Notes: generated from the letters alone by a model not told the origin. 32,000 nt of DNA from Candidatus Saccharimonadota bacterium (GCF_014857065.1 NZ_CP046533.1:540001-572000); one strand, 5' to 3'; counted from the first letter of the stretch, positions 1 through 28,897 are shown. Numbers and translations are program-made.

Positions 1-761
1 CTATAGGTCGTGGCCAACGTGGTCTTATTGTTGCTCCACCTAAAGCTGGTAAAACAATACTTTTGCAAAATATTGCTCAAAGTGTTGCTTATAATCATTC
101 GGAATGCGTTTTAATAGTTTTGCTGATTGATGAACGCCCTGAAGAAGTTACGGAAATGCAGAGGTTGGTAAAAGGGGAGGTTATTGCATCTACTTTCGAT
201 GAACCGGCTTCTCGTCATATACAGGTTTCTGAAATGGTTATTGAGAAAGCTAAACGTTTAGTGGAACATAAAAAAGATGTTATTATTTTATTGGATTCTA
301 TTACTAGGTTGGCGCGTGCTTATAACACAGTAGTTCCAGCTTCTGGAAAAATTTTGACAGGAGGCGTAGATGCTAATGCATTACAACGTCCGAAGAGGTT
401 TTTTGGTGCTGCGCGTAATATGGAGGAAGGTGGTAGTTTAACTATTATTGCTACTGCATTAATTGATACTGGTTCAAAAATGGATGAGGTAATTTATGAA
501 GAATTTAAGGGAACAGGTAATATGGAATTACATTTGTCTCGTAGAATTGCAGAAAAGCGAGTTTTTCCAGCAATTGATTATAACCGTTCTGGTACTCGTA
601 AAGAAGAGTTGCTTACTACTCAGGAAGAGCTTCAAAAAATTTGGATTTTACGTAAAATTATTCATCCTATGGGGGAAATTGATGCAATGGAATTTATGAT
701 GAATAAACTATCAATGACTAAGACCAATGATGAATTTTTTAACATGATGAGGCGTTCTTAA
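1..761 (+). CDS. rho: Transcription termination factor Rho, 3' portion, truncated by the window edge. Identical to 15886..16646.
   Basis: The frame is open from the window start ([18 protein letters not shown] Walker A) to TAA at 759..761. The ORF-track protein is identical to the C-terminal 232 aa of the full Rho ORF and very close to E. coli Rho. Confidence 0.95.
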
Positions 762-838
762 TTTTGTTATTGTTTTTATTTTTAGTAACTGAATTTTATT
801 CGTTAATTAATTGAATTGTTTTAAAATGATTTAGCTAT

Positions 839-912
839 GCGCTCGTAGCTCAACAGGATAGAGCGTTGTCTTCCGGAGGCAGAGGTTTCAGGTTCAAGTC
901 CTGTCGAGCGCG
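839..912 (+). tRNA. argX: tRNA-Arg (anticodon CCG), no encoded CCA
   Basis: Hand-folded cloverleaf: acceptor GCGCTCG/CGAGCGC, D arm GCTC..GAGC, anticodon loop TTCCGGA, T loop GGTTCAAGTCC. Same position as E. coli argX in the argX-hisR-leuT-proM cluster. Confidence 0.9.
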
Positions 913-980
913 TTCTAATGAATGTAGATATTCGATTTGGTTTTTTGTTACTTGATCTATTTTTGAAAATAATAGAATAT

Positions 981-1054
981 GGTGATTGTAGCTCAGTTGG
1001 TAGAGCACTGGATTGTGGTTCCAGTTGTCGTGGGTTCGATTCCCATCAGTCACC
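981..1054 (+). tRNA. hisR: tRNA-His (anticodon GUG) with the extra 5' G(-1). No complete CCA is encoded.
   Basis: GGTGATTGTAGCTCAGTTGGTAGAGC..CTGGATTGTGGTTCCAG..GGGTTCGATTCCC..CAGTCACC. Nearly identical to E. coli hisR. Confidence 0.9.
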
Positions 1055-1092
1055 CAAGAAAGGGTATTTATCGAAAATTTGTATCTGGTCAA

Positions 1093-1183
1093 GCGAAGGT
1101 GGCGAAATGGGTAGACGCGCTAGTTTCAGGAATTAGTGTCGAAAATAATAAAGACTGTGAGGGTTCGAATCCCTCTCTTCGCA
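1093..1183 (+). tRNA. leuT: tRNA-Leu (anticodon CAG), a class II tRNA with an unusually large variable-arm loop. No encoded CCA.
   Basis: Acceptor GCGAAGG/TCTTCGC, anticodon loop TTCAGGA (CAG at 1127..1129), T arm GAGGGTTCGAATCCCTC. The variable arm is GTC-(12 nt GAAAATAATAAA)-GAC, where E. coli leuT has GTCC-TTAC-GGAC. Confidence 0.85.
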
Positions 1184-1214
1184 TGTATTTTCTTTTTTTT
1201 TGCGTTTAATTATT

Positions 1215-1288
1215 CGGCGAGTAGCGCAGCTTGGTAGCGCAGCTGGTTTGGGACCAGTTGGTCGGGGGTTCAAATCCTCTCTCGCCGA
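1215..1288 (+). tRNA. proM: tRNA-Pro (anticodon UGG), no encoded CCA
   Basis: CGGCGAGTAGCGCAGCTTGGTAGCGCAGCTGGTTTGGGACCAGT..GGGGTTCAAATCCTCTCTCGCCGA. Near-identical to E. coli proM. Confidence 0.9.
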
Positions 1289-1353
1289 TAAGAGATTATA
1301 ATTTGATTTTTTGTTTTTATTTAAATATAAATTTTCAAAATAAACAGTATATA

Positions 1354-1374
1354 CTAATTTCTAATTTCTAATTT
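1354..1374. repeat. Short tandem repeat (CTAATTT)x3
   Basis: Read directly: CTAATTTCTAATTTCTAATTT in the spacer downstream of tRNA-Pro. Confidence 0.8.
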
Positions 1375-1499
1375 CTATAGATAGTTAATTGATTTTAAAT
1401 GCTAATTTTTTTAGATTGTATTGAGGATTTATATAGCATTTACATACATGAGAATATATAGTAATCATTCAGTTTGGCAGTATATTTTATAATTTGTTA

Positions 1500-2246
1500 T
1501 TATATATTCAGTAATAATTTTATTAAATCTTTATTGTTGGCTGTTTTTGCCATTACAATATCTTTCCACCCTAATCGTTTAGCTATATAAGCTAAACGAT
1601 TACTTACTACTATTAATTTACAGCAGATTAACCAAGATTTTCTATGATTTTTTGGTAATAAGTAATATAGTTGTTTTAGCATTTCTCCACTAGTAACCAC
1701 TAGTGTATTGATGCCCAGTTTTATCATTCGATTGCCTTGCTCTTCTCCATTGTAATTTATTTGTTTTCTATAATAACATTCACAGTATTCTACTTTTACT
1801 CCTCTTTTTTTAAGTACATTTCCAAGTTTTTTACGACCATTTTTACCTTGTAGTATTAATGCTCGTTTTCCATGTATGTTTGTTAATGTTGGTAAAAGTA
1901 ATAAGTTTTCACTGCTTTCACCATTTTTAGGGAAGTTTACTGATAATCCTGTTAGTTTATTCATTAATAATCCACTAGATCTGCCGATCGAATAGTATTT
2001 TAATTTAGATGGCCAAAATAATCTTGAAATAGACAACCATTGATGAGCATAATTGATTGCATTTTGTGATATAATGAATACAAGATCTTCGTTAGAAAGG
2101 AGGTTTAATTTTTTTATTAATAAAGATAATTCTTTGCTAGGGTAACAATGAATTAAAGGTAAATGCCACGCTTCTTTACCTAAATTAATTAATTGTTTAA
2201 CTAAATTATCTCCTGCTGGCGATGGACGGGTTATTAAAATTTTTTT
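1500..2246 (-). CDS. hemD: Uroporphyrinogen-III synthase HemD. The frame is full length and open but has no canonical in-frame start. The ATG at 2260..2258 is out of frame across an A9 tract.
   Basis: The ORF track shows only 1500..2036. By hand, the same frame stays open up to 2246: KKILITRPSPAGDNLVKQLINLGKEAWHLPLIHCYPSKEL.., which aligns with the E. coli HemD N-terminus MSILVTRPSPAGEELVSRL... The C-terminal part contains GKRALILQG..VVTSGEML. Confidence 0.8.
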   Translation of the reverse strand, partial: KKILITRPSPAGDNLVKQLINLGKEAWHLPLIHCYPSKELSLLIKKLNLLSNEDLVFIISQNAINYAHQWLSISRLFWPSKLKYYSIGRSSGLLMNKLTGLSVNFPKNGESSENLLLLPTLTNIHGKRALILQGKNGRKKLGNVLKKRGVKVEYCECYYRKQINYNGEEQGNRMIKLGINTLVVTSGEMLKQLYYLLPKNHRKSWLICCKLIVVSNRLAYIAKRLGWKDIVMAKTANNKDLIKLLLNI

Positions 2247-2277
2247 TTATTTGTTTGCATATTTTAGAATTTAAAAT

Positions 2278-3213
2278 TTATTTGCTGTTAATTATTAGTT
2301 CTCTTGCGATCTTTATGCTTAAAATTTTTCTTTCTTTTATAAGTGCAGTACCTTCACTGCGTATAATTTTTTTTTTATTAGTTGAGTAAATTAATGCCCT
2401 TAACCATATGTAATTATTATTTTTGATTTCAGCATAACTGGCAATTGATGATTTACAATTACTTTTTAGCAAAAAATTAACATTGCGTTCAGTTTCAATG
2501 CATAGAGAAGTTATTTGATGGTGCAATGGTTTTAATAATGCTAAAGTTTCATCATCTTTTAATCTATATTCGATTCCTAATGCTCCTTGTCCCATAGCAG
2601 GTAAAAAGTTAGCCGGATCGATTGACATACGGATATAATTATTTAATGATAAGCGTTTAAGTCCTGCTGTCGCTAGGATTAAGGCGTCGTAGTGGCCTTG
2701 ATTTAATTTTTTTAATCTGGAGTCAATATTTCCTCTTATATTTTTTATTTTTAAGTCTGGCCTATGTTCGTATAATTGACATTGACGTCGCAGACTTGAA
2801 GTACCTACTATTGCTCCATTTGGTAAATTTTCTAATTTGGAATATCGTAAACTAACAAAAGCGTCTCGTGGATCGTCTCGTTTACATATTACTGCTATAC
2901 CAAGACCTTTAGGGAAAGAGATACTTACATCTTTCATTGAATGCACTGCAATATCAGCATGATGGTTAAGTAAAGCATATTCTAATTCTTTAATAAATAA
3001 TCCTTTTCTGTTAATGTTTTCTAATTCTTTATTTAATGCTAGATCCCCTATTGTGATTATTGGAATTAGCTTTATTTGTAAATTTGGGTGATAATGAAGC
3101 AATTTATTATATATATAATTTGTCTGGCATAATGCAAGTGGACTATTGCGTGTAGCTATTTTTAGGGTTTTAAGATGCATATCGTTATTTATCTTTGTTT
3201 TTAAAAATTTCAT
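2278..3213 (-). CDS. hemC: Porphobilinogen deaminase (hydroxymethylbilane synthase) HemC. An alternative start at 3180 (MHLKTLKIATR) aligns better with E. coli.
   Basis: 311-aa ORF with IATRNSPLALCQ, ADIAVHSMKD, GTSSLRRQCQL and PAMGQGALGIE. Strong similarity to E. coli HemC and adjacent to hemD, as in E. coli. Confidence 0.93.
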   Translation of the reverse strand: MKFLKTKINNDMHLKTLKIATRNSPLALCQTNYIYNKLLHYHPNLQIKLIPIITIGDLALNKELENINRKGLFIKELEYALLNHHADIAVHSMKDVSISFPKGLGIAVICKRDDPRDAFVSLRYSKLENLPNGAIVGTSSLRRQCQLYEHRPDLKIKNIRGNIDSRLKKLNQGHYDALILATAGLKRLSLNNYIRMSIDPANFLPAMGQGALGIEYRLKDDETLALLKPLHHQITSLCIETERNVNFLLKSNCKSSIASYAEIKNNNYIWLRALIYSTNKKKIIRSEGTALIKERKILSIKIARELIINSK

Positions 3214-3705
3214 TATGTTTATATTGTTTTTAATGAAGTATTAATTTTATTGATAGAATAACATTTTAATCATTTTTAGTTTACTTGTCTTTATATACAA
3301 TTATTAAATTTTTTTATTTATTTGAGTGAATTATGATAATTTTATTATATTGAATTTTAAATATATCATTAGTATTAATATAGATTTTGAAATTAATTAA
3401 ATTTATTTATATAAATTTTTATTAAATTATTAATTTTTATTTTTAAATTTTTGATAAAGTAATTTTATAAGTTAGTTTTTATTTGATTTTATAAAATTAT
3501 TGTTTATTTAAGTATCTATACATATAGATATAGTATATATTTTTTTTTTGAAATTATGATTAAATTTTTCTTTATTCCTGATGATTAAATTTAGTTATAT
3601 TTTAAAATATTTATTAATTTTATATGTGTTTTGTATAGTAAATATTTATGAAGTTTATTAATAATTTATTTATTTATTAATATGAAGATAATGATAGAGT
3701 TTTGT

Positions 3706-3748
3706 TTAGTATATTTAATTTTAATATAATTAAAATTAAATATACTAA
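3706..3748. repeat. AT-rich inverted repeat (20-bp arms, 3-nt loop) in the hemC-dapF spacer
   Basis: Checked base by base: 3706..3725 pairs perfectly with 3729..3748. Sequence is TTAGTATATTTAATTTTAAT ata ATTAAAATTAAATATACTAA. Confidence 0.7.
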
Positions 3749-3954
3749 TAATGGTATGATATTTTGATTTTTATAATTTTATTATAATTAATAATTTAGT
3801 AACTGTAATTGTAAATATATTATGAGAATGTTATTTTTTTATTTTCCCATTGATTTTTAAATATAAATTTAATTTTACTAGTTGATAAATAGCTAATTTA
3901 CGTAATATTTATTATATTATTGTTATTTTAATTGTATTACTTATTGAGGTATCA

Positions 3955-4785
3955 ATGCGATTTTCTAAAATGCATGGATTGGGTAATGATTTTATGATTG
4001 TAGATGGAATAACACAAAATATTGCATTTACGCGAAAAACAATCTGTCGTTTGTCTGATCGACGGTATGGAGTAGGTTTTGATCAATTATTATTAGTAGA
4101 GTTATCAGAGCGTTTCGGAATAGATTTTAATTATCGTATTTTTAATGCTAATGGTCAAGAAGTAAATCAGTGTGGTAATGGTGTTCGTTGTTTAGGTAGT
4201 TTTGTAAAAATTAAGAAATTAACTTATAAAAATATCGTTTATGTTAGTACTAGAACCAGATGCATGATGTTATCTTTTATTAGGGATGATTATATTAAAG
4301 TGAATATGGGGGAACCTGATTTTTGTCCCGCCAGGGTTCCGTTTAAAGCTTGTAAAATAGAAAATAGTTATGTTTTATATGTTGCTGGGCAAGCTATGTT
4401 ATGTGGTGTTGTTTCAATTGGCAATCCTCATTGCATTATTCTAGTGGATAATGCGGATATTGTTAACGTTACAGCTATTGGTGCTTTGTTGTCACAGAAT
4501 CCTAGATTTCCTGAAGAGACTAATGTTGGTTTTATGCAGATTGTTAATTATAATCATATTCGTTTAAGAGTATATGAAAGAGGTGTTGGCGAAACACAGT
4601 CCTGTGGTAGTGGTGCATGTGCGGCTGTTGCTGTAGGTATTCAACGGGGGTTATTATCTGAACAAGTGAATGTAGATCTTTTAGGTGGAGCATTATTAAT
4701 TAATTGGAAAGGGGTTGGACATGCTTTGTATATGACTGGATCAGCTACTCATGTTTATGATGGAGATATTAGTTTAAATTTTTAA
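3955..4785 (+). CDS. dapF: Diaminopimelate epimerase DapF
   Basis: 276-aa ORF: [17 protein letters not shown].., [27 protein letters not shown]. Collinear with E. coli DapF over its full length. Confidence 0.95.
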
Positions 4786-4944
4786 TATATAAACCGGTGA
4801 TTTCTTATTTATCATGTTATTTATTTTGTTAACAAAAATTTCTTAATTTAATTTTTATTTTGTTTTCTTCATTTAAGCGTGTGAAAAGTAATAATTTTTG
4901 GTTGTTAGTTATTTAGTTATATTTTGTTAATTTGGAGATTTATA

Positions 4945-5655
4945 TTGTTAATATTTCGTCGTTTATTAAGGCCTTTATATATATTAACTTTTAATTTAGA
5001 CGATGTTTTATGATAATCGTTCAGTTATTGCTAATGTGGAGATAAATTAATTTTATTTTACGACATCATTATGCTAATAGTAATAATTTAAGTATTAGGG
5101 AACATTGAAAGTTACGTTGTATTTTACTTCAACATGAATCAAATTTTTATTATAATATTAATTATTGGCACTGGTAATTTATTAGTTTAGTTTTATAGAT
5201 TTTTGGTTTAGTTTAAATGAAGCTTCTGTAGGTATCGATAGTTCAATGGAGATTTTTATTGATTGGCATAGTGAAATTAATATTATCTTATGAATACATA
5301 TTCTATATTGAATATTTTAATTTCTAGTTGTCATTAGTTGTTATTACTAATAGTAATGTTAATTTAGTTATGTATGGTTTAGATAAATATTTTAGTTATG
5401 CTTTTCGTGTCTGAATTGATGATTGTGTAAAACCATATGAAGATATGTATTTTATGACGGTAAAATAATTAGGTATATTTTGCAGAATATTATGCATATA
5501 GGTAATGATGTAATCATAGATATATAGAGCTATTAATTGGTGGGTTCAGGTTTCTTGTATGATGAATATGTTGAGAATTATCGTTTGGTTTTAATAAGAG
5601 TTATGTACCTCATTTAGATATTTCAAAATTGTTTTTTTTGACAGAATTGTTATAA
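4945..5655 (+). pseudogene. yigB: Degraded yigB (HAD-family FMN/5-amino-6-ribitylaminouracil phosphate phosphatase) with several stops and frameshifts
   Basis: Hand translation gives fragments in E. coli YigB order. LIFRRLLRPLYILTFNLDDVL* then YDNRSVIANVE matches [52 protein letters not shown] matches [40 protein letters not shown] matches HVGDDLTTDV. YVPHLDISKLFFLTELL* matches LLPHLEISRLASLTSLI. It also sits just upstream of uvrD, where E. coli has yigB. Confidence 0.8.
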
Positions 5656-5720
5656 TAAATAAAATTTTTATGTATATGATTTTCATTTTTTTTTGAATTA
5701 AACATTTTCTTAATCTGCCC

Positions 5721-7688
5721 ATGGATATTGTAAGTTTGTTTAATAAACTGAATGATAAACAGCGTGAAGCTGTTGTTGCTAAAGACAGTCATGTACTGGT
5801 TTTAGCTGGTGCTGGTAGCGGAAAAACTCGAGTATTAACCCATCGTGTTATTTGGTTGAAAATGATAAAGAATTATTCTTCTTCTTCAATTATGGCAGTA
5901 ACTTTTACTAATAAAGCATCATTGGAAATGAAGAGTCGTATAAACGCTTTAATTGGTGATTTTTCTAAAGGAATGTGGATAGGTACATTTCATGGTTTTG
6001 CTTATTGTTTATTGCGCTCTCATTATTTAGATTCGAATTTGCCTAAAAATTTTCAAATAATAGATAGGAATGATCAGATATGTTTATTAACGAAATCTAT
6101 TCGTTATCTTGGTTTAGATGAAAAAAAATGGCAACCTAATAGTGCTGTATGTTTTATTAGCGATAAAAAAAATAAATCTTCTCTATTTCCTAATGTTGAT
6201 GGACGATCAAGTAAATCAGAAATTACTTGGTTGAATATCTATAAAGTTTATCAGAATATGTGTGATCGTGCTGGATTAGTAGATTTTGATGAACTTTTAT
6301 GTCGTTTATATAATTTGTTACTGAATAATCCAGCTATTTTAGCTTATTATCGAAATAAGTTTGTTAATATTTTAGTGGATGAGTTTCAAGATACTAATAA
6401 AATGCAATATAATTGTTTGTATTTGTTATTAGGTGAAAAAAGCAATGTTATGATTGTTGGTGATGATGATCAATCAATTTATAGTTGGCGTGGCGCTCAG
6501 GTTGATAATATTTATAGATTTATTAGTGATTTTTCATCAACACGTATTATTCGTCTAGAACAAAATTATCGCTCTACTAATAACATTTTACAAACAGCTA
6601 ATACTTTAATTTCCTATAATCAAAATCGTATTGCTAAGAAGTTATGGAGCACAGAAGGCAAAGGGAAGACTGTTTCTTTATATAGAGCAGTGAATGAATT
6701 AGATGAAGCATATTTTGTAATTAATTGTATAAAAGCTTGGCAACAAAAAGGAGGTTTATTGAATAATTGTGCCATTTTGTATCGTAGTAATATTCAATCT
6801 CTTGTTTTAGAGAGAGTATTGTTACATAGTAAGATTCCGTATAAGATATGGGGTGGTAGTATCAGGTTTTTTGAACGTCAAGAAATTAAAAATATGTTCG
6901 CGTACCTTCGTTTAATTATTAATAAAAGTGATGATGTTGCATATGAAAGAATTCTTAATGTTCCACCTAGAGGTATAGGAAAGCGTACGTTAGATTTAGT
7001 AAGAAATATATCTATTACTGATCAGTTGACTTTATGGGAAAGCACTAAGAATTTATTAAATAATACTAAATTAAAAACAAGAATTTTTAGAGTATTACAG
7101 GATTTTATTACTTTAATTAATTTTTTATCTGAAGAAATTGAACAGTTATCATTATTTGATCAAATAGATTTAGTAATAAAAGAAACTGGTTTGTTTTGTT
7201 TTTACAAGCAAATGCAAGGTTCTAAGTCTACGTTATGTATTGAGAGCTTTAAAGAAATCTTAGATGCTGCTCATCGTTTTGATCAAAATTATGAAAATAG
7301 AAGTGATAATATATCTGTTTTGCGTGATTTTGTTTCATATTATTTGTTAGAAAATGATAAAGATTATCGTAGTTCTGAATTATTTTCTGATCTTGATTCT
7401 GTTAATTTAATGACTTTACATGCTTCTAAAGGATTAGAATTTTCTCAGGTATTTATTGTTGGTATGGAGGAAGGTATTTTTCCTAGTCAAATGTCTTTAT
7501 TAGGAGAAAAGCAAGTAGAAGAAGAACGTAGATTAGCTTATGTAGGTATTACCCGTGCGATGCATAGTTTAACTATTAGTTATGCTGAAAATCGTTTTAT
7601 ATATGGCAAAGCTATTATATGTAAAGTTTCCCGTTTTATTAATGAATTACCTAAAGAATGCATAAGTAATGTTTTTTTTTCAAATTGA
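5721..7688 (+). CDS. uvrD: DNA helicase II UvrD (655 aa), lacking the ~65-aa C-terminal extension of E. coli UvrD
   Basis: MDIVSLFNKLNDKQREAVVA..LVLAGAGSGKTRVL, ILVDEFQDTN, VGDDDQSIYSWRGA, LEQNYRST, LMTLHASKGLEF..VFIVGMEEGIFPS, RRLAYVGITRA. The N-terminus and synteny match UvrD rather than Rep. Confidence 0.93.
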   Translation: MDIVSLFNKLNDKQREAVVAKDSHVLVLAGAGSGKTRVLTHRVIWLKMIKNYSSSSIMAVTFTNKASLEMKSRINALIGDFSKGMWIGTFHGFAYCLLRSHYLDSNLPKNFQIIDRNDQICLLTKSIRYLGLDEKKWQPNSAVCFISDKKNKSSLFPNVDGRSSKSEITWLNIYKVYQNMCDRAGLVDFDELLCRLYNLLLNNPAILAYYRNKFVNILVDEFQDTNKMQYNCLYLLLGEKSNVMIVGDDDQSIYSWRGAQVDNIYRFISDFSSTRIIRLEQNYRSTNNILQTANTLISYNQNRIAKKLWSTEGKGKTVSLYRAVNELDEAYFVINCIKAWQQKGGLLNNCAILYRSNIQSLVLERVLLHSKIPYKIWGGSIRFFERQEIKNMFAYLRLIINKSDDVAYERILNVPPRGIGKRTLDLVRNISITDQLTLWESTKNLLNNTKLKTRIFRVLQDFITLINFLSEEIEQLSLFDQIDLVIKETGLFCFYKQMQGSKSTLCIESFKEILDAAHRFDQNYENRSDNISVLRDFVSYYLLENDKDYRSSELFSDLDSVNLMTLHASKGLEFSQVFIVGMEEGIFPSQMSLLGEKQVEEERRLAYVGITRAMHSLTISYAENRFIYGKAIICKVSRFINELPKECISNVFFSN

Positions 7689-8166
7689 TTTCAGGAGATT
7701 AGATTGATATTATTTTATTACTGTTTTGTAACGTGATTTTAAAGATTATGTATTTTGATTAATAAATATATTTTATCTTAATTTTATAAATAAAATATGA
7801 TAGACTGCCATTTTGATATATAAGTAGTTGTTGTTTTGTAGTGATTTTTTATTATGTTATAGTTTCAATTGTAATTGTAGGTTCGTTTTTTATTGTTGAT
7901 TTGCTTTGTTTTTGTTATATTTTCCTGATTTATTTTAATGTATATTATTAATTTTATGTTAAATGTGTGTATATATTCCATTATATTGTGGTGTTGTTTT
8001 GGAAATTATGTCATTAAATATGTCGGTGTGGTGATTTCAAATTTAATTTTGTATTTGAGCGATATTTATTTAATATTGTCGAATGTTTTGTTGCTAGTTC
8101 TTATTTTAATTTCAGCAGTTTGATATATGATATGTTTTAGTTTTAATCACCAAGGAAATAGTGGTT

Positions 8167-9114
8167 ATGCTTAGCGCTTTTAAATTGGAGAATAATCAAT
8201 TAGTTAAGATTAATTTGGAAAAATCTTTTGCTTTGCGTGAAGCGATATGGATTGATTTAATTGAACCTACCAAAGATGAATTTAATCGCATACAAATAGA
8301 GTTAGGTGATAGTTTTATAAAATGTTTTGATTCTAAGGGAAATATTGGTAATAGTAAATTTTTAAAAAGCAAAAAAGATTTATATATTTGTTCTGTATTT
8401 TTTTACAATGAGATATATCATCAAACGGATGGTATTGTTGTTTCGTTTATAATTTGTGATGGGAAATTATATAGTGTACGTGAACAAGAAATATCTGTTT
8501 TTCGTTTTTATCAAACGGATGTTGATAATACAGAACTTTTTATTGATGATAATGGTGCATATACAATTTTATTAGATTTATTTGAGTTAAAAATAGATCA
8601 TTTGGCAAATAAAATAGAGAATGTTTATAGTGATTTAGAAGTATTGGGTGTCTTGATTATGAATGGGAAAGAAATAGATAAATACAGTTCAATATTTTCT
8701 ACTTTAGCAAGTTTAGAACAAGTTTGTTGGAAATTGCGTAGATGTTTATTAGATACTCAACGTTCTGTTGATTTTTTGATTCGTAAGGCAAAAATTTCTA
8801 TCAATCAAATAAGTCAGGCAAAGAAAGTTTTAAGTATTATAGATTATTTATTAGTTCATACTGAAACAGTATTACAAAAAGTTAATTTTTTGATACAAAT
8901 AGCAATGGGGTTCATTAATATTGAACAAAATCGTGTTCTTAGATTTTTTTCTGTAGTTTTTTTACCACCTACATTAGTTGCTTCTAGCTATGGTATGAAT
9001 TTTGAATTTATGCCGGAGTTAAAATGGTCTTTTGGATATCCCATAGCTATTATCTTAATGATTTTAACTGGTTTAGCTCCTTATCTTTATTTTAAGCATA
9101 AAAATTGGTTATAA
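8167..9114 (+). CDS. corA: Magnesium/cobalt transporter CorA
   Basis: The ORF runs 8161..9114. The ATG at 8167 gives MLSAFKLENN, matching E. coli MLSAFQLENN. The C-terminus has FLPPTLVASSYGMNFEFMPELKWSFGYP, including the GMN motif. Confidence 0.93.
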   Translation: MLSAFKLENNQLVKINLEKSFALREAIWIDLIEPTKDEFNRIQIELGDSFIKCFDSKGNIGNSKFLKSKKDLYICSVFFYNEIYHQTDGIVVSFIICDGKLYSVREQEISVFRFYQTDVDNTELFIDDNGAYTILLDLFELKIDHLANKIENVYSDLEVLGVLIMNGKEIDKYSSIFSTLASLEQVCWKLRRCLLDTQRSVDFLIRKAKISINQISQAKKVLSIIDYLLVHTETVLQKVNFLIQIAMGFINIEQNRVLRFFSVVFLPPTLVASSYGMNFEFMPELKWSFGYPIAIILMILTGLAPYLYFKHKNWL

Positions 9115-17099: not shown

Positions 17100-17173
17100 C
17101 GGCGAGTAGCGCAGCTTGGTAGCGCAGCTGGTTTGGGACCAGTTGGTCGGGGGTTCAAATCCTCTCTCGCCGA
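17100..17173 (+). tRNA. proM: tRNA-Pro (UGG), duplicate copy
   Basis: Identical to 1215..1288 at offset +15885. Confidence 0.9.
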
Positions 17174-18131: not shown

Positions 18132-18162
18132 TTATTTGTTTGCATATTTTAGAATTTAAAAT

Positions 18163-20671: not shown

Positions 20672-20830
20672 TATATAAACCGGTGATTTCTTATTTATCA
20701 TGTTATTTATTTTGTTAACAAAAATTTCTTAATTTAATTTTTATTTTGTTTTCTTCATTTAAGCGTGTGAAAAGTAATAATTTTTGGTTGTTAGTTATTT
20801 AGTTATATTTTGTTAATTTGGAGATTTATA

Positions 20831-21541
20831 TTGTTAATATTTCGTCGTTTATTAAGGCCTTTATATATATTAACTTTTAATTTAGACGATGTTTTATGAT
20901 AATCGTTCAGTTATTGCTAATGTGGAGATAAATTAATTTTATTTTACGACATCATTATGCTAATAGTAATAATTTAAGTATTAGGGAACATTGAAAGTTA
21001 CGTTGTATTTTACTTCAACATGAATCAAATTTTTATTATAATATTAATTATTGGCACTGGTAATTTATTAGTTTAGTTTTATAGATTTTTGGTTTAGTTT
21101 AAATGAAGCTTCTGTAGGTATCGATAGTTCAATGGAGATTTTTATTGATTGGCATAGTGAAATTAATATTATCTTATGAATACATATTCTATATTGAATA
21201 TTTTAATTTCTAGTTGTCATTAGTTGTTATTACTAATAGTAATGTTAATTTAGTTATGTATGGTTTAGATAAATATTTTAGTTATGCTTTTCGTGTCTGA
21301 ATTGATGATTGTGTAAAACCATATGAAGATATGTATTTTATGACGGTAAAATAATTAGGTATATTTTGCAGAATATTATGCATATAGGTAATGATGTAAT
21401 CATAGATATATAGAGCTATTAATTGGTGGGTTCAGGTTTCTTGTATGATGAATATGTTGAGAATTATCGTTTGGTTTTAATAAGAGTTATGTACCTCATT
21501 TAGATATTTCAAAATTGTTTTTTTTGACAGAATTGTTATAA
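20831..21541 (+). pseudogene. yigB: Degraded yigB, duplicate copy
   Basis: Same sequence as 4945..5655 at offset +15886, with the same disruptions. Confidence 0.8.
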
Positions 21542-21606
21542 TAAATAAAATTTTTATGTATATGATTTTCATTTTTTTTTGAATTAAACATTTTCTTAAT
21601 CTGCCC

Positions 21607-23574
21607 ATGGATATTGTAAGTTTGTTTAATAAACTGAATGATAAACAGCGTGAAGCTGTTGTTGCTAAAGACAGTCATGTACTGGTTTTAGCTGGTGCTG
21701 GTAGCGGAAAAACTCGAGTATTAACCCATCGTGTTATTTGGTTGAAAATGATAAAGAATTATTCTTCTTCTTCAATTATGGCAGTAACTTTTACTAATAA
21801 AGCATCATTGGAAATGAAGAGTCGTATAAACGCTTTAATTGGTGATTTTTCTAAAGGAATGTGGATAGGTACATTTCATGGTTTTGCTTATTGTTTATTG
21901 CGCTCTCATTATTTAGATTCGAATTTGCCTAAAAATTTTCAAATAATAGATAGGAATGATCAGATATGTTTATTAACGAAATCTATTCGTTATCTTGGTT
22001 TAGATGAAAAAAAATGGCAACCTAATAGTGCTGTATGTTTTATTAGCGATAAAAAAAATAAATCTTCTCTATTTCCTAATGTTGATGGACGATCAAGTAA
22101 ATCAGAAATTACTTGGTTGAATATCTATAAAGTTTATCAGAATATGTGTGATCGTGCTGGATTAGTAGATTTTGATGAACTTTTATGTCGTTTATATAAT
22201 TTGTTACTGAATAATCCAGCTATTTTAGCTTATTATCGAAATAAGTTTGTTAATATTTTAGTGGATGAGTTTCAAGATACTAATAAAATGCAATATAATT
22301 GTTTGTATTTGTTATTAGGTGAAAAAAGCAATGTTATGATTGTTGGTGATGATGATCAATCAATTTATAGTTGGCGTGGCGCTCAGGTTGATAATATTTA
22401 TAGATTTATTAGTGATTTTTCATCAACACGTATTATTCGTCTAGAACAAAATTATCGCTCTACTAATAACATTTTACAAACAGCTAATACTTTAATTTCC
22501 TATAATCAAAATCGTATTGCTAAGAAGTTATGGAGCACAGAAGGCAAAGGGAAGACTGTTTCTTTATATAGAGCAGTGAATGAATTAGATGAAGCATATT
22601 TTGTAATTAATTGTATAAAAGCTTGGCAACAAAAAGGAGGTTTATTGAATAATTGTGCCATTTTGTATCGTAGTAATATTCAATCTCTTGTTTTAGAGAG
22701 AGTATTGTTACATAGTAAGATTCCGTATAAGATATGGGGTGGTAGTATCAGGTTTTTTGAACGTCAAGAAATTAAAAATATGTTCGCGTACCTTCGTTTA
22801 ATTATTAATAAAAGTGATGATGTTGCATATGAAAGAATTCTTAATGTTCCACCTAGAGGTATAGGAAAGCGTACGTTAGATTTAGTAAGAAATATATCTA
22901 TTACTGATCAGTTGACTTTATGGGAAAGCACTAAGAATTTATTAAATAATACTAAATTAAAAACAAGAATTTTTAGAGTATTACAGGATTTTATTACTTT
23001 AATTAATTTTTTATCTGAAGAAATTGAACAGTTATCATTATTTGATCAAATAGATTTAGTAATAAAAGAAACTGGTTTGTTTTGTTTTTACAAGCAAATG
23101 CAAGGTTCTAAGTCTACGTTATGTATTGAGAGCTTTAAAGAAATCTTAGATGCTGCTCATCGTTTTGATCAAAATTATGAAAATAGAAGTGATAATATAT
23201 CTGTTTTGCGTGATTTTGTTTCATATTATTTGTTAGAAAATGATAAAGATTATCGTAGTTCTGAATTATTTTCTGATCTTGATTCTGTTAATTTAATGAC
23301 TTTACATGCTTCTAAAGGATTAGAATTTTCTCAGGTATTTATTGTTGGTATGGAGGAAGGTATTTTTCCTAGTCAAATGTCTTTATTAGGAGAAAAGCAA
23401 GTAGAAGAAGAACGTAGATTAGCTTATGTAGGTATTACCCGTGCGATGCATAGTTTAACTATTAGTTATGCTGAAAATCGTTTTATATATGGCAAAGCTA
23501 TTATATGTAAAGTTTCCCGTTTTATTAATGAATTACCTAAAGAATGCATAAGTAATGTTTTTTTTTCAAATTGA
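21607..23574 (+). CDS. uvrD: DNA helicase II UvrD, duplicate copy
   Basis: The ORF-track protein is identical to 5721..7688. Confidence 0.93.
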   Translation: MDIVSLFNKLNDKQREAVVAKDSHVLVLAGAGSGKTRVLTHRVIWLKMIKNYSSSSIMAVTFTNKASLEMKSRINALIGDFSKGMWIGTFHGFAYCLLRSHYLDSNLPKNFQIIDRNDQICLLTKSIRYLGLDEKKWQPNSAVCFISDKKNKSSLFPNVDGRSSKSEITWLNIYKVYQNMCDRAGLVDFDELLCRLYNLLLNNPAILAYYRNKFVNILVDEFQDTNKMQYNCLYLLLGEKSNVMIVGDDDQSIYSWRGAQVDNIYRFISDFSSTRIIRLEQNYRSTNNILQTANTLISYNQNRIAKKLWSTEGKGKTVSLYRAVNELDEAYFVINCIKAWQQKGGLLNNCAILYRSNIQSLVLERVLLHSKIPYKIWGGSIRFFERQEIKNMFAYLRLIINKSDDVAYERILNVPPRGIGKRTLDLVRNISITDQLTLWESTKNLLNNTKLKTRIFRVLQDFITLINFLSEEIEQLSLFDQIDLVIKETGLFCFYKQMQGSKSTLCIESFKEILDAAHRFDQNYENRSDNISVLRDFVSYYLLENDKDYRSSELFSDLDSVNLMTLHASKGLEFSQVFIVGMEEGIFPSQMSLLGEKQVEEERRLAYVGITRAMHSLTISYAENRFIYGKAIICKVSRFINELPKECISNVFFSN

Positions 23575-24052
23575 TTTCAGGAGATTAGATTGATATTATT
23601 TTATTACTGTTTTGTAACGTGATTTTAAAGATTATGTATTTTGATTAATAAATATATTTTATCTTAATTTTATAAATAAAATATGATAGACTGCCATTTT
23701 GATATATAAGTAGTTGTTGTTTTGTAGTGATTTTTTATTATGTTATAGTTTCAATTGTAATTGTAGGTTCGTTTTTTATTGTTGATTTGCTTTGTTTTTG
23801 TTATATTTTCCTGATTTATTTTAATGTATATTATTAATTTTATGTTAAATGTGTGTATATATTCCATTATATTGTGGTGTTGTTTTGGAAATTATGTCAT
23901 TAAATATGTCGGTGTGGTGATTTCAAATTTAATTTTGTATTTGAGCGATATTTATTTAATATTGTCGAATGTTTTGTTGCTAGTTCTTATTTTAATTTCA
24001 GCAGTTTGATATATGATATGTTTTAGTTTTAATCACCAAGGAAATAGTGGTT

Positions 24053-25000
24053 ATGCTTAGCGCTTTTAAATTGGAGAATAATCAATTAGTTAAGATTAAT
24101 TTGGAAAAATCTTTTGCTTTGCGTGAAGCGATATGGATTGATTTAATTGAACCTACCAAAGATGAATTTAATCGCATACAAATAGAGTTAGGTGATAGTT
24201 TTATAAAATGTTTTGATTCTAAGGGAAATATTGGTAATAGTAAATTTTTAAAAAGCAAAAAAGATTTATATATTTGTTCTGTATTTTTTTACAATGAGAT
24301 ATATCATCAAACGGATGGTATTGTTGTTTCGTTTATAATTTGTGATGGGAAATTATATAGTGTACGTGAACAAGAAATATCTGTTTTTCGTTTTTATCAA
24401 ACGGATGTTGATAATACAGAACTTTTTATTGATGATAATGGTGCATATACAATTTTATTAGATTTATTTGAGTTAAAAATAGATCATTTGGCAAATAAAA
24501 TAGAGAATGTTTATAGTGATTTAGAAGTATTGGGTGTCTTGATTATGAATGGGAAAGAAATAGATAAATACAGTTCAATATTTTCTACTTTAGCAAGTTT
24601 AGAACAAGTTTGTTGGAAATTGCGTAGATGTTTATTAGATACTCAACGTTCTGTTGATTTTTTGATTCGTAAGGCAAAAATTTCTATCAATCAAATAAGT
24701 CAGGCAAAGAAAGTTTTAAGTATTATAGATTATTTATTAGTTCATACTGAAACAGTATTACAAAAAGTTAATTTTTTGATACAAATAGCAATGGGGTTCA
24801 TTAATATTGAACAAAATCGTGTTCTTAGATTTTTTTCTGTAGTTTTTTTACCACCTACATTAGTTGCTTCTAGCTATGGTATGAATTTTGAATTTATGCC
24901 GGAGTTAAAATGGTCTTTTGGATATCCCATAGCTATTATCTTAATGATTTTAACTGGTTTAGCTCCTTATCTTTATTTTAAGCATAAAAATTGGTTATAA
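24053..25000 (+). CDS. corA: Magnesium/cobalt transporter CorA, duplicate copy
   Basis: The ORF-track protein is identical to the copy-1 corA ORF. Confidence 0.93.
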   Translation: MLSAFKLENNQLVKINLEKSFALREAIWIDLIEPTKDEFNRIQIELGDSFIKCFDSKGNIGNSKFLKSKKDLYICSVFFYNEIYHQTDGIVVSFIICDGKLYSVREQEISVFRFYQTDVDNTELFIDDNGAYTILLDLFELKIDHLANKIENVYSDLEVLGVLIMNGKEIDKYSSIFSTLASLEQVCWKLRRCLLDTQRSVDFLIRKAKISINQISQAKKVLSIIDYLLVHTETVLQKVNFLIQIAMGFINIEQNRVLRFFSVVFLPPTLVASSYGMNFEFMPELKWSFGYPIAIILMILTGLAPYLYFKHKNWL

Positions 25001-25628
25001 TTTTGTTTATTATTCAGTGTTGATATTTTATTTTTATATTTTCATGTATTGTATATTATGTATTTAAATTTTATAGAATTAATATTTTAGAATCGATATT
25101 TTGATGATTACATATACTGTTTTTTATTTCAGATATATTTAAATTTCAATCATAAGTTATGTAATAAAATAATTATTGTTAAATTTTGTTATATGAATAT
25201 TTATTTTTTTTGATTTGTATTTTTGTATTATTTATGTTAACGGCTACTTGATGTAGTTATTTAGACTTTTGTATTTCTTTACTAAGATAGCTTTTAATTG
25301 CTATATATATATTTTATGTTAAGAATTGTTTCTAACAAAATAGGTTTTTCTAAAGTTTTAAATAGTAAAAACTATGATATATATATTTATATATTCGAGG
25401 AAAGGTTATTTTCTTTAATATATATTTATTAGTTAATTTATAATTATAGATCAAATATTTTTAAATGATATTATAATAGATATGGCGGAAAATTAGGATA
25501 AATCTAAATGAATGTTTAAATTTATTATTGTATATTTAATTATAAATCATTACTACTAAACTTAGTTATGTATTTTATAATAAGATTATAATTGTTTATT
25601 TAATTGAATATTAGAGGTTTGGTGTTTT

Positions 25629-26447
25629 ATGTTTCATATTGTTGCATCTGATTTGGATGGTACTTTATTATCTTCTGATCATAAAGTCGGTTGTTTTACT
25701 AAACAAATCTTACAGTCCCTTATTACCCAGGGTATACATTTTGTTTTTGCTACTGGTCGTCACCATGTCAATGTCATTAAGATACGTGATTATTTAAATA
25801 TTTCTGCTTATATGATTACTTCCAATGGTGCTAGAGTATATGACAATAGTAATGAGTTAATTTTTTCTCATAATTTGAATGAAAACATAGCTTTGGAATT
25901 GTTTGATTTAGTGTATAATGATCCAAAAATTGTTACTAACATATTTCGTAATGATGAATGGTATATAAATCGTAACGTTCATCTAGATAAAGAAAATTAT
26001 CTTAGTGGTTTTTCTTTTCATGCTAAATTATACCAACAAAATATGTTACCTGCTGATGGCATTTGTAAAGTTTATTTTACTAGTGATGACTATCAACATC
26101 TATTAAATTTGGAACGATTTTTGAATGTGCGTTGGGGGGATTGTATTAATGTTAGTTTTTCTTTACCTATGTGTCTTGAAGTTATGCCTGGTGGTGTTTC
26201 CAAGGGTTATGCCTTACATGAAGTTGCTAACTTATTAGGTTATGATTTGCAAGATTGTATTTCTTTTGGGGATGGTATGAATGATCAAGAGATGTTATCA
26301 ATGGTTGGTAAAGGTTGTATTATGCGTAATGCTCAACAACGACTAAAAGATAGTCTTCCTTGGTTAGAAATTATTGGTAGTAATGAAGAAGAAGCTGTTT
26401 CTCATTATTTACGAGAAATGTATCTGATAAAAACTGATTTTTTATGA
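25629..26447 (+). CDS. yigL: Cof-type HAD phosphatase YigL, duplicate copy
   Basis: The ORF-track protein is identical to 9743..10561. Confidence 0.9.
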   Translation: MFHIVASDLDGTLLSSDHKVGCFTKQILQSLITQGIHFVFATGRHHVNVIKIRDYLNISAYMITSNGARVYDNSNELIFSHNLNENIALELFDLVYNDPKIVTNIFRNDEWYINRNVHLDKENYLSGFSFHAKLYQQNMLPADGICKVYFTSDDYQHLLNLERFLNVRWGDCINVSFSLPMCLEVMPGGVSKGYALHEVANLLGYDLQDCISFGDGMNDQEMLSMVGKGCIMRNAQQRLKDSLPWLEIIGSNEEEAVSHYLREMYLIKTDFL

Positions 26448-26755
26448 ATAATGATTATTATATAGAATAAAATTTTTATAATTTCAAATAATTAATTCTT
26501 GATGTTGTTGCGATTTTGATATTTTTGTTATTTTATTTTTGTTATGGATAAGAATGATTTAATAAAATTTAAAGTAAATTATATATTTATCTTAAATTTT
26601 GTTTAGTTAAGTATATCAATTATTATAATAGTTAAAGTTTATTTTTGGGTAAAATGCTTATTGAAATCGCGTAAGTTGTACGATATGTTACTGTTTAAAT
26701 ATAATTTTTCAATTTTATTTTAATAAGTAATATATCGTACTTTAGCGTTGATAGT

Positions 26756-27349
26756 TTATGTGCGAAGGTAGTCTTTTATGCCATCCAGTAACATTTGAGT
26801 AGAAATCATAATTAATAATAACCCCATTAAACGTTCTAGAGCGTTTATTCCTTTGTTTCCTAATAGACGAGAAAATACATTTGATAGCATTAAAATTAAT
26901 ATAGATAACCCCCAAGCAATTAGTAGTGATAGTATTAGAAAATCAATTTTATGAGGATATTGATGTGATAACAGTAATAATGTAGCTAAAATTGATGGCC
27001 CCGCAACTAAAGGAATGGCTAATGGTACTAGGAATGGTTCTTCATCTATTTGTAATCCTGAATTGTTGTTTTCTTGTGATGGAAAGATCATTTTAATTGC
27101 TATTAAAAATAAAATAATTCCACCTGCAATAGATACCGTTTCTGTATGTAAATTAAGGAATATAAGTATATGTTCGCCGACAAACAAAAATATTAACATT
27201 AATAGTAAAGCTATTAGCATTTCTCTAATTACAATTATTTGTCTTCTTTTTGGTTCTAAATGTTTTAGAATTGACATGAAGATTGGTAGATTTCCAATCG
27301 GATCCATAATTAAAAATAGTAGTATAGTAGCTGATATCATTTCATTCAT
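26756..27349 (-). CDS. yhgN: MarC-family membrane protein YhgN, duplicate copy
   Basis: The ORF-track protein is identical to 10870..11463. Confidence 0.9.
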   Translation of the reverse strand: MNEMISATILLFLIMDPIGNLPIFMSILKHLEPKRRQIIVIREMLIALLLMLIFLFVGEHILIFLNLHTETVSIAGGIILFLIAIKMIFPSQENNNSGLQIDEEPFLVPLAIPLVAGPSILATLLLLSHQYPHKIDFLILSLLIAWGLSILILMLSNVFSRLLGNKGINALERLMGLLLIMISTQMLLDGIKDYLRT

Positions 27350-27557
27350 TAGTATATAAATCTCCTTAAGTTTTATTAATTGAAATTAATTGTTGTTTTG
27401 TTCATTTACGAATTAATTTTTATTTTTTTATGTTCTTATTTTAAATTTATTGTTTCATATTATTAGTGTAATATATAGTATATTCGTAAATTAGATGTAA
27501 TTGCAGCATATAAATTTTGTTTATTTAGTAAGTTATTTGATGCAAAAGGAAGAATAT

Positions 27558-28661
27558 ATGAAAAATGTTGGGTTTATAGGTTGGCGAGGGATGGTTGGAT
27601 CAGTGCTTATGAAACGTATGCTTGAAGAAAATAATTTTAATAATATTTCTTCTGTTTTTTTTTCGACTTCTCAATATGGCAAAACTGTTTCTAATATGAA
27701 TGATCGTTTTGGTATTATACAAAACGCTTGGGATTTAGATATTCTTAGTTCCTTGGATATTATTGTCACATGTCAAGGTAGTGATTATACAAATGAAATT
27801 TATCCAAAATTAAGAAATATTGGTTGGCAAGGTTATTGGATAGATAGTGCATCTTCATTAAGAATGCTTGAAGATGTTATTATTGTCCTTGATCCCATTA
27901 ATCAACATTTGATAAATCAAGGTCTAGATAGAGGTATTAAAACTTTTGTAGGTGGTAATTGTACTGTTAGTTTAATGTTGATGTCTTTAGGTGGTTTATT
28001 TGTTTCTAATTTAGTTGAATGGATTTCAGTATCTACCTATCAGGCTGTTTCTGGTGCTGGCGCTAAATTTGTACGTGAATTATTAATGCAAATAGGTGAT
28101 ATACATAACTCAATAAGTGATTTATTGCTAAATTCTGATATATCTATTTTAGAAATTGAAGGCCTTGTAACTAAATTGTTAAATGATAATTTAATATTAA
28201 ATAATTATGATAGTGTGCCTTTAGCATGTAATTTAGTGCCATGGATTGATAGGTTATTAGATAATGGTCAAACCAGAGAAGAATGGAAGAGTCAAGTTGA
28301 GACTAATAAAATACTAGGCCTTAAGGAAGTAGTTCCAATTGATGGTTTATGCGTGCGCATTAGTTCTTTACGTTGTCATAGTCAATCTTTTGTTATAAAG
28401 TTAAAAGAAAATGTTTCTTTAAAAGAAATTGAATTTTTGCTTGCAGCACATAATGAGTGGGTAGTTGTGGTACCAAATGATTATAGTTGCTCATTACATC
28501 AACTTACACCAGCAGTTGTTACTGGTACTTTGAATATTCCAATTGGTAGATTACGCAAATTAAATATGGGTCCACGTTATCTTTCAGCTTTTACTGTAGG
28601 TGATCAGTTGTTATGGGGAGCTGCTGAGCCATTGCGAAGAATGTTATGTAAGTTAATTTAA
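27558..28661 (+). CDS. asd: Aspartate-semialdehyde dehydrogenase Asd, duplicate copy
   Basis: The ORF-track protein is identical to the copy-1 asd ORF. The ATG giving MKNVGF is at 27558. Confidence 0.95.
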
Positions 28662-28897
28662 TTTAATTGTTGTTTTGTGTAGTGTGTATTTTATTTGTTT
28701 TATGTTTTATATTAAGATAGGATTTGAAATTATCAGAGATAATATATATTATTTTTCGTAATTTTTGTTTTACTGTTTAGAATAACTATTGGAAAAGTAT
28801 CAGATTTCTTTATAATATACTTCGTGGATTAAGTATATTTAATTTCCACATGTTATATTTTTAAGGAATTTTTAATTTTTTTTCCTGTTTTCACATT

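What the first reader, a model, noticed from the sequence alone, without database searches (positions are those of the whole stretch)
1..28842. A 15.9-kb-period, near-perfect tandem duplication of a 13-gene, 4-tRNA housekeeping block in a reduced endosymbiont-type genome
Seen: 1..12956 equals 15886..28842. All proteins are identical (rho 3' part, hemD, hemC, dapF, uvrD, corA, yigL, yhgN, asd), as are four tRNAs, the yigB pseudogene and every spacer I spot-checked. Identity is still running at base 1, so the left boundary of copy 1 is not observed. ilvC, trxA and the rho 5' part (12957..15885) lie between the copies.

Established: genomes of this type are normally strictly single-copy and structurally static. 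Documented exceptions are few, such as the amplified trpEG and leu plasmids of Buchnera and repeat-driven instability in whitefly Portiera.

Inference: this is a head-to-tail duplication of the unit ilvC..asd, whose unit start is at 12957. Copy 1 would therefore begin about 2.93 kb upstream of the window and would also contain ilvC, trxA and a complete rho. More than two copies are possible. Both boundaries fall in spacers (181 bp after asd, 270 bp before ilvC), so no gene is broken and every cargo gene would be present at double dose. Near-zero divergence means the duplication is very recent, is being homogenised, or is an assembly artefact.
Basis: partly seen in the sequence, partly recalled or inferred. 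Interest (0 to 1): 0.8.

Follow-up and report, generated by a model that had tools for sequence, protein, structure and literature searches.

The report
Unverified 15.9-kb duplication in Blochmannia assembly
The deposited genome of the ant endosymbiont Blochmannia (host Colobopsis nipponica) contains a 15.9-kb block of housekeeping genes twice in a row, but it was built only from short reads that cannot span such a repeat, so the second copy is somewhat more likely a finishing error than real biology.

Summary
Window 1..12956 equals 15886..28842 except for one extra T in a T-run: T4 at 3629-3632 and T5 at 19514-19518.

[quoted passage not shown] Protein accession pairs (ilvC = QOI10881 and QOI10891; nfuA only QOI10901) show exactly two head-to-tail copies of a 10-CDS, 4-tRNA unit.

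Whether the bacterium carries the duplication is not shown.
- The genome was assembled only from 151-bp Illumina reads with about 350-bp inserts (Velvet, GapCloser, manual finishing). The paper never mentions a duplication.
- The sister genome from C. obliquus has the block once.
- An independent assembly of the same reads (Logan) runs unbroken from asd into nfuA. It ends inside the only long perfect palindrome in the window, which sits exactly at the copy junction.
- Toy graph simulations fit a single-copy genome without extra assumptions. They fit a 1:1 duplication only under one particular tip-clipping behaviour.
- Against an artefact, the exact junction and the T4/T5 difference are what a real duplication resolved from an assembly graph would give.

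My estimates: finishing artefact about 0.55, fixed recent tandem duplication about 0.25, subpopulation duplication or 15.9-kb circle about 0.15. Read depth and junction-spanning reads from SRR12768939 would settle it.

The parts
1..12956 (+). Visible part of copy 1 (rho 3' part .. asd + 181 bp). Copy 1 starts about 2.93 kb upstream of the window.
   Evidence: Identical to 15886..28842 except for one T. Identical to the Logan contig of the same reads.
12957..28842 (+). Complete copy 2, the 15,886-bp unit: ilvC, trxA, rho, 4 tRNAs, hemD (frameshifted), hemC, dapF, yigB remnant, uvrD, corA, yigL, yhgN, asd.
   Evidence: PGAP accessions QOI10891-10900 against QOI10881-10890 for copy 1.
12956..12957 (.). 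The new asd-end | ilvC-spacer junction. This is the only sequence specific to the duplication (...GTATATTTAA|AGTTAGAAT...). The A at 12956 is the only possible microhomology.
   Evidence: Read support is not testable here.
12956..13001 (.). Perfect 46-bp palindrome with 23-nt arms and no loop, starting exactly at the junction. It is the only long perfect no-loop palindrome (arms of 10 nt or more) in the window. I infer that it is the truncated form of a 64-bp palindrome (12947..13010) present on the ilvD side.
   Evidence: DNA fold -18.3 kcal/mol, z = -7.5. The longest arm in 30 shuffles was 8-12 nt. The Logan k=31 contig starts at 12981, which needs the mirrored region to reach 13010.
3629..3632 (+). 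T4 homopolymer in copy 1, in the hemC-dapF spacer. One half of the only difference between the copies.
   Evidence: The Logan contig also has T4.
19514..19518 (+). T5 homopolymer in copy 2. The other half of the only difference between the copies.
   Evidence: The Logan assembly does not reproduce it.
28843..32000 (+). Unique right flank: nfuA (28898-29473, minus strand), aroK (30544-31059) and the start of aroB.
   Evidence: The order asd-nfuA is the same as in the sister genome.
13227..14705 (+). ilvC, first gene of the unit (492 aa).
   Evidence: NF003557, 858 bits. Accessions QOI10881 and QOI10891.
27540..28661 (+). asd, last gene of the unit (373-aa call). The copy-1 equivalent is 11654-12775.
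   Evidence: TIGR01745, 588 bits. Logan gene call of 373 aa.
16723..17174 (+). tRNA-Arg(CCG), His(GUG), Leu(CAG) and Pro(UGG) cluster. The copy-1 equivalent is 838-1289.
   Evidence: ARAGORN.

Best explanation
The second copy is most likely a product of manual finishing of a short-read assembly, not a structure in the Blochmannia chromosome. Under this reading the real genome reads ilvD - 64-bp palindrome - ilvC ... asd - nfuA once, as in its sister species.

A perfect palindrome longer than the k-mer size makes a de Bruijn graph fold back on itself, so every short-read contig stops there. The deposited junction (asd end joined to position 12957) lies 10 nt inside the left arm of that palindrome. 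That is exactly where a k=55 contig would begin.

The inferred sequence of events is that a contig beginning in the palindrome was joined to sequence that already contained the same 15.9 kb. Read mapping to the finished sequence did not expose the false join, because clipped reads still cover every base.

Shown: the duplication is in the record, the data type cannot span it, the sister genome is single-copy, and the independent contig behaves as described. Inferred: the 64-bp palindrome, the value k=55 and the joining error itself.
For: 1. CP046533 was built from 151-bp HiSeq X reads with about 350-bp inserts only, using Velvet, GapCloser and Geneious hand finishing. The paper does not mention a duplication, although it would be the genome's most unusual feature. 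It reports 609 CDS and 40 tRNAs as comparatively high. Those counts include the 10 CDS and 4 tRNAs of the extra copy.
2. The sister genome CP010049 carries ilvD-ilvC-trxA-rho-hemD-hemC-dapF-(uvrD remnant)-corA-yigL-yhgN-asd-nfuA once.
3. The Logan assembly of the same run, SRR12768939, gives one 175-kb contig that runs from ilvC through asd into nfuA, aroK and on to fusA with no break at 28842|28843. It ends at window 12981, inside the palindrome.
4. In k=31 graph simulations this contig is reproduced by a single-copy genome with a 64-bp palindrome whichever way hairpin self-loops are treated. A 1:1 duplication breaks the contig at 28842 unless the hairpin is clipped as a tip.
5. The junction sits exactly on the only long perfect no-loop palindrome in the window. 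In the single-copy model a k=55 contig starts at 12957.
6. No substitutions in 12,956 bp would require a duplication only centuries to a few thousand years old. This uses endosymbiont substitution rates from my own knowledge, not checked here.
Against: 1. A de Bruijn assembler holds each k-mer once, so it cannot create a 15.9-kb redundancy by itself. A human step is needed, and I cannot name it from the methods text.
2. Nothing in a single-copy genome explains why a contig or join should end at 28842. The Logan contig has no break there.
3. The T4/T5 difference means the two copies were not simply pasted from one contig. A loop containing a bubble is what the assembly graph of a real duplication with one copy-specific variant looks like.
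4. The start at 12957 needs k = 55 exactly, and the k used is not published.
5. The junction is internal to the record, so the common 'untrimmed circular overlap' error applies only if the sequence was rotated afterwards.
6. How Minia treats hairpin self-loops was not verified, so point 4 of the evidence for is worth only a factor of about 3.
Confidence: 0.55

Rival explanations
1. A real, fixed and very recent tandem duplication. A break or template switch inside the left arm of a 64-bp perfect palindrome upstream of ilvC was joined to a point 181 bp after asd, with at most 1 nt of microhomology. This produced two head-to-tail 15,886-bp units and doubled the dose of ilvC, trxA, rho, hemC, dapF, uvrD, corA, yigL, yhgN, asd and four tRNAs. 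The authors resolved it correctly from a 2x-coverage contig and its junction reads.
For: - The structure is exactly what resolving a loop-with-bubble assembly graph gives: a precise junction, two copies and one copy-specific indel.
- Long perfect palindromes are known hot spots for breakage and template switching (established knowledge), so a breakpoint inside one is natural.
- In the duplication model, a contig at any k of 57 or more starts at 12956 and ends at 28842, which are the observed unit boundaries.
- The Logan contig is compatible if the hairpin is clipped as a tip.
Against: - No read can span the repeat, and no depth or junction data are reported.
- The paper is silent about a duplication.
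- The sister genome is single-copy.
- The Logan contig is unbroken at 28842, which a 1:1 junction should break unless tips cascade.
- T5 is not the path Logan kept.
- Zero substitutions require a very young event, so the prior is low.
- I found no paper reporting a large tandem duplication in Blochmannia.
Confidence: 0.25
2. The junction is real but is not a fixed chromosomal duplication. Either only part of the symbiont population in the pooled workers carries the tandem duplication, or the 15.9-kb unit also exists as an excised circle (asd end joined to 12957) beside a single chromosomal copy. Short reads cannot tell these from a tandem duplication, and the authors wrote the structure as two chromosomal copies.
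For: - DNA came from multiple pooled workers.
- A junction present at roughly a quarter or less of chromosomal depth would be removed by coverage-ratio graph cleaning. That would leave the Logan contig unbroken and T4 as the majority path, both as observed. The cleaning thresholds are from my memory of Minia and were not checked.
- A circle and a tandem duplication give the same short-read graph.
Against: - The junction would need to exceed Velvet's 30x cut-off while staying low enough for Logan to drop it, which is a narrow range.
- The unit contains no replication-initiator gene or other plasmid function.
- There is no direct evidence for either form.
Confidence: 0.15

Closest known systems
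False duplications introduced when short-read contigs are joined by hand or by gap closers at repeat or hairpin breaks
   Same: The data are short reads only. The junction lies at a structure that ends de Bruijn contigs. The copies are identical except for a homopolymer length. The authors did not notice it. An independent assembly of the same reads shows no branch at the repeat end.
   Different: At 15.9 kb it is far larger than typical gap-closer duplications. The junction is internal to the record rather than at its ends. The exact step that produced it cannot be reconstructed.
Tandem segmental duplications or amplifications in free-living bacteria (Salmonella and E. coli duplication-amplification literature; own knowledge)
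   Same: Head-to-tail units, a single novel junction with 0-1 nt of microhomology, all cargo genes doubled, and near-zero divergence if recent.
   Different: Those are usually flanked by rRNA operons or IS elements and depend on RecA. Here there is no flanking repeat, only a palindrome at one breakpoint, and the host lineage has a static genome.
Buchnera trpEG and leuABCD amplification on plasmids
   Same: An endosymbiont raising the dose of amino-acid biosynthesis genes. ilvC, dapF and asd are in the unit.
   Different: The Buchnera cases are dedicated replicons with repA/ori and a focused pathway cargo. This unit is an arbitrary stretch of chromosome (rho, trxA, hem genes, uvrD, corA, tRNAs) with no replication gene.
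Sister genome: Blochmannia endosymbiont of Colobopsis obliquus, CP010049
   Same: Same gene order from ilvD to nfuA. IlvC is 73% identical, HemC 76% and Asd 66%.
   Different: The block is single-copy. There is no long palindrome in the ilvD-ilvC spacer. uvrD is a degraded pseudogene there but an intact 655-aa ORF here.

Membership tests
Genuine tandem segmental duplication | Two adjacent head-to-tail copies of near-identical sequence in the record | tested here: met
   One indel in 12,956 bp, and paired accessions offset by 10.
Genuine tandem segmental duplication | Reads or molecules that cross the novel junction (asd end to ilvC spacer) | not testable with these tools
   No read access. The junction-specific sequence is 59 nt at k=31, below Logan's 150-bp reporting limit.
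Genuine tandem segmental duplication | About 2x read depth over the unit relative to the flanks | not testable with these tools
   Only a genome-wide mean of 232x is published. Logan abundances are not exposed.
Genuine tandem segmental duplication | An assembly graph of the reads branches at the end of the repeat | tested here: inconclusive
   The Logan contig is unbroken at 28842|28843. Simulation shows a 1:1 duplication should break it unless hairpin tips are clipped in cascade.
Assembly or finishing artefact (false duplication) | Sequencing data cannot span the repeat | tested here: met
   151-bp reads, about 350-bp inserts and no long reads, against a 15.9-kb unit.
Assembly or finishing artefact (false duplication) | Junction coincides with a natural contig end | tested here: met
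   The junction lies inside a perfect palindrome. The independent k=31 contig ends in the same palindrome. A k=55 contig would start at 12957, but the k actually used is unknown.
Assembly or finishing artefact (false duplication) | Closest relatives are single-copy at the locus | tested here: met
   CP010049 locus L083. This is also compatible with a recent real event.
Assembly or finishing artefact (false duplication) | No reads support the junction | not testable with these tools
   Requires mapping SRR12768939.
Endosymbiont amplification plasmid (Buchnera trpEG/leu type) | A replication initiator or origin within the amplified unit | tested here: not met
   Every ORF of 80 aa or more in the unit that matches a family is a chromosomal housekeeping gene. 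No rep gene was found.
Endosymbiont amplification plasmid (Buchnera trpEG/leu type) | Extrachromosomal circular molecule | not testable with these tools
   Short-read graphs of a circle and of a tandem duplication are identical.

The most novel reading that the evidence does not exclude
The junction is real. This Blochmannia then carries a duplication of a 15.9-kb chromosomal block that is at most a few thousand years old and was triggered by a palindrome. The block could sit as a tandem repeat or as an excised circle, and includes ilvC, dapF, asd and four tRNAs. This would be a rare view of structural change and gene-dose increase under way in a lineage regarded as structurally static. The truncated palindrome at the junction and the full palindrome at the outer boundary would record the mechanism.
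Probability: 0.4. Interest if true: 0.65.

Novelty: not a real feature. Interest (0 to 1): 0.3.

Why it matters
If real, this would be the first large recent tandem duplication reported in Blochmannia, as far as my literature searches show. It would show that a long perfect palindrome can still drive rearrangement in a genome thought to be frozen, and it would double the dose of several amino-acid biosynthesis genes.

If false, as I think somewhat more likely, it matters as a data-quality issue.
- CP046533 would be about 15.9 kb too long: 712,230 bp rather than 728,116 bp.
- The published counts would be inflated by 10 CDS and 4 tRNAs (609 to 599 CDS, 40 to 36 tRNAs).
- Comparative studies that use the record would infer a false duplication and false paralogues.

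Either way, the reads are public and one mapping run decides it.

Tried and rejected
1. **Fetching the upstream flank.** I tried to find what lies upstream of copy 1.
   - The genome-contig scan with IlvC did not return the source genome or any Blochmannia.
   - I identified ilvD as the upstream gene from the sister genome.
   - The third and last homology search, using the sister IlvD fragment, did not return the C. nipponica IlvD. The Logan contig carrying ilvD and the left arm of the palindrome could therefore not be read, and the 64-bp palindrome remains an inference.
2. **UvrD as a homology query.** This wasted a search. Other Blochmannia lack an intact uvrD.
3. **asd look-up.** The look-up with the TTG-start ORF failed because the called start differs.
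4. **Palindrome only at the junction.** I considered that it might be a templated inverted insertion. I rejected this because neither treatment of self-loops reproduces the Logan contig.
5. **46-bp palindrome in both contexts.** Rejected, because the k=31 contig would then start at 12972, not 12981.
6. **A short dispersed repeat shared by the asd-nfuA and ilvD-ilvC spacers causing a misjoin.** Rejected, because the Logan contig would then break at that repeat. This is my reasoning from the graph logic and was not simulated.
7. **Untrimmed overlap after circularisation.** The paper mentions 2-kb end overlaps. This is possible only if the record was rotated afterwards, and the overlap would have to be 15.9 kb, so I kept it as one unproven route to the artefact.
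8. **Literature.** No paper mentions this duplication.
Full report
**1. Observation**

At offset 15885, window 1..3632 equals 15886..19517. At offset 15886, 3629..12956 equals 19515..28842. The only difference in 12,956 bp is one extra T in a T-run: T4 at 3629-3632 in copy 1 and T5 at 19514-19518 in copy 2. The run lies in the hemC-dapF spacer.

Identity stops at 12956|12957 on the left copy and 28842|28843 on the right copy.

ARAGORN finds the same four tRNAs twice. hemD is split by a frameshift in both copies. Its N-terminal 72 residues are in another frame at 2031-2246 on the minus strand. A weak YigB remnant lies at 5186-5290 (E = 0.026).

**2. Source and full extent**

Exact-sequence look-up places the proteins in 'Blochmannia endosymbiont of Colobopsis nipponica', on a 728,116-bp NCBI contig.

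Each duplicated protein carries two GenBank accessions exactly 10 apart:
- IlvC: QOI10881 and QOI10891
- HemC: 10884 and 10894
- DapF: 10885 and 10895
- UvrD: 10886 and 10896
- YigL: 10888 and 10898

NfuA has only QOI10901. The record therefore reads [ilvC..asd][ilvC..asd]nfuA, with exactly two units of 10 annotated CDS. There is no third copy.

**3. How the record was made**

The genome announcement (PMC8086219) describes accession CP046533.
- DNA came from multiple pooled workers.
- The library was TruSeq Nano with about 350-bp fragments, sequenced as 151-bp HiSeq X reads.
- Assembly used Velvet 1.2.10 with a minimum depth of 30x, then GapCloser, BWA, SAMtools and Geneious 'for filling gaps'.
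- Circularity was 'confirmed via overlapping 2-kb sequences on both ends'.
- The reads are SRR12768939.

There are no long reads or mate pairs, so nothing spans a 15.9-kb unit. The paper does not mention a duplication. It notes that 609 CDS is the third highest count and that 40 tRNAs ties for the highest among Blochmannia genomes. Both counts include the extra 10 CDS and 4 tRNAs. No other paper in the library cites the accession or reports a Blochmannia tandem duplication.

**4. Relatives**

The closest available genome is Blochmannia of Colobopsis obliquus (CP010049, locus L083). Its order is ilvD, ilvC, trxA, rho, hemD, hemC, dapF, a degraded uvrD, corA, yigL, yhgN, asd, nfuA, each present once. 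Single copy with asd followed by nfuA is therefore the ancestral state, and ilvD is the expected left neighbour of copy 1. The ilvD-ilvC spacer of that genome has no long palindrome.

**5. The junction**

Position 12956 is the first base of a perfect palindrome, 12956..13001, with 23-nt arms and no loop. It is the only perfect no-loop palindrome with arms of 10 nt or more in the window.
- Shuffled sequence gives maximum arms of 8-12 nt.
- It folds at -18.3 kcal/mol with z = -7.5.
- The only other long hairpin is a 20-nt-arm, 3-nt-loop structure at 3706-3748, repeated at 19592-19634.

**6. An independent assembly of the same reads**

Logan (k=31, Cuttlefish2 unitigs cleaned by Minia3) holds one 175,163-bp contig from SRR12768939.
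- It begins at window 12981, two bases past the palindrome centre.
- It runs through ilvC..asd and continues without a break into nfuA, aroK, aroB and on to fusA.
- It is identical to the window everywhere except that it has T4 where copy 2 has T5.

Logan keeps each 31-mer once by construction, so it cannot show two copies. The informative points are where the contig ends and where it does not break.

**7. Graph simulations**

I built canonical k-mer graphs for five model genomes and applied simple tip clipping. The observed contig starts at 12981 and is unbroken at 28842.

| Model | Fits the observed Logan contig? |
|---|---|
| Single-copy genome, palindrome reaching 13010 (64 bp, left arm GATAAAAACA + AGTTAG...) | Yes, whichever way the hairpin self-loop is treated |
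| 1:1 tandem duplication with the same 64-bp palindrome on the ilvD side | Only if the hairpin unitig is clipped as a dead end, which then removes the 59-nt junction chain. Otherwise the contig breaks at 28842 |
| 46-bp palindrome only | No. The contig would start at 12972 |
| Palindrome only at the junction | No. The contig either breaks at 28842 or merges with the ilvD side |

Two conclusions follow.
- The ilvD-side context almost certainly holds a 64-bp perfect palindrome, and the duplication junction cuts 10 nt into its left arm.
- The Logan evidence favours a single copy, or a low-frequency junction, by a modest factor. I could not check how Minia treats self-loops, so I value this at about 3-fold.

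**8. The case for an artefact**

- The data cannot resolve the repeat.
- The authors seem unaware of it.
- The junction lies in a structure that ends every short-read contig.
- In the single-copy model a k=55 contig starts exactly at 12957.
- The relative is single-copy.
- No substitutions means any real event is extremely young. At about 1e-7 substitutions per site per year (own knowledge, Buchnera-type rates), no change in 2 x 12,956 bp implies roughly under a thousand years, or up to about ten thousand years at rates ten times slower.

**9. The case for a real junction**

- A de Bruijn assembler cannot output the same 15.9 kb twice, so a person had to place the unit twice. The usual reason to do that is a 2x-coverage contig whose end branches back to its own start.
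- In the duplication model the unit contig ends at 28842 at every k tested and starts at 12956 at k of 57 or more. These are the observed boundaries.
- Nothing in a single-copy genome explains an end at 28842.
- The T4/T5 difference shows the copies were not pasted from one sequence. A loop containing one bubble is what a duplication with one copy-specific variant looks like.
- Long palindromes are established hot spots for breakage and template switching.

**10. Verdict**

These points roughly balance. The low prior for a very recent event, the authors' silence and the Logan result tip it towards an artefact.

| Explanation | Probability |
|---|---|
| Finishing artefact | 0.55 |
| Fixed recent tandem duplication | 0.25 |
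| Junction real but present in a subpopulation or as a 15.9-kb circle | 0.15 |
| Other | 0.05 |

The unit has no replication gene, so it is not a Buchnera-type amplification plasmid by that criterion.

**11. Novelty and interest**

Even if real, this is a tandem segmental duplication, which is a known kind of event. It would be notable only for its host lineage and its palindrome breakpoint. As it stands it is an unverified feature of a short-read record. Interest is 0.3. The public reads allow a decisive test in under an hour using depth, junction 40-mer counts and the T4:T5 ratio.

Noticed in passing
window 1500-2246 (minus strand; also 17385-18131): hemD is split by a frameshift. Residues 76-245 are in ORF 1500-2036 and residues 2-71 are in another frame at 2031-2246. 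It has no protein accession in the numbering. hemC next to it is intact. It is either a pseudogene or rescued by slippage.
   Followed up: partly
window 5721-7688; L083 12183-14104: uvrD is an intact 655-aa ORF here, lacking about 65 C-terminal residues relative to the 720-aa family model. In the sister Blochmannia of C. obliquus it is a fragmented pseudogene at about 30% identity. No other Blochmannia UvrD appeared among the top homologues.
   Followed up: partly
window 3706-3748 (also 19592-19634): A second long perfect hairpin with 20-nt arms, a 3-nt loop and 95% A+T lies in the hemC-dapF spacer, about 75 bp downstream of the T4/T5 indel. Its left arm shares the 14-mer AGTATATTTAATTT with the asd/nfuA breakpoint (3708, 19594, 28832). 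This may be chance in A+T-rich spacer sequence.
   Followed up: partly
window 12947-13010 (predicted form, on the ilvD side, outside the window): The Logan contig end implies a 64-bp perfect palindrome between ilvD and ilvC in the real genome. That is unusually long for a bacterial chromosome, and the sister species' spacer has none. It would be worth checking in the full record.
   Followed up: partly
whole record CP046533: The published genome size (728,116 bp), CDS count (609) and tRNA count (40) all include the second copy. Without it they would be 712,230 bp, 599 CDS and 36 tRNAs.
   Followed up: no
window 3214-3954 and 4786-5720: Long non-coding spacers sit where E. coli has cyaA/cyaY and yigA-xerC-yigB. 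Only a faint YigB trace remains (E = 0.026 at 5186-5290).
   Followed up: partly
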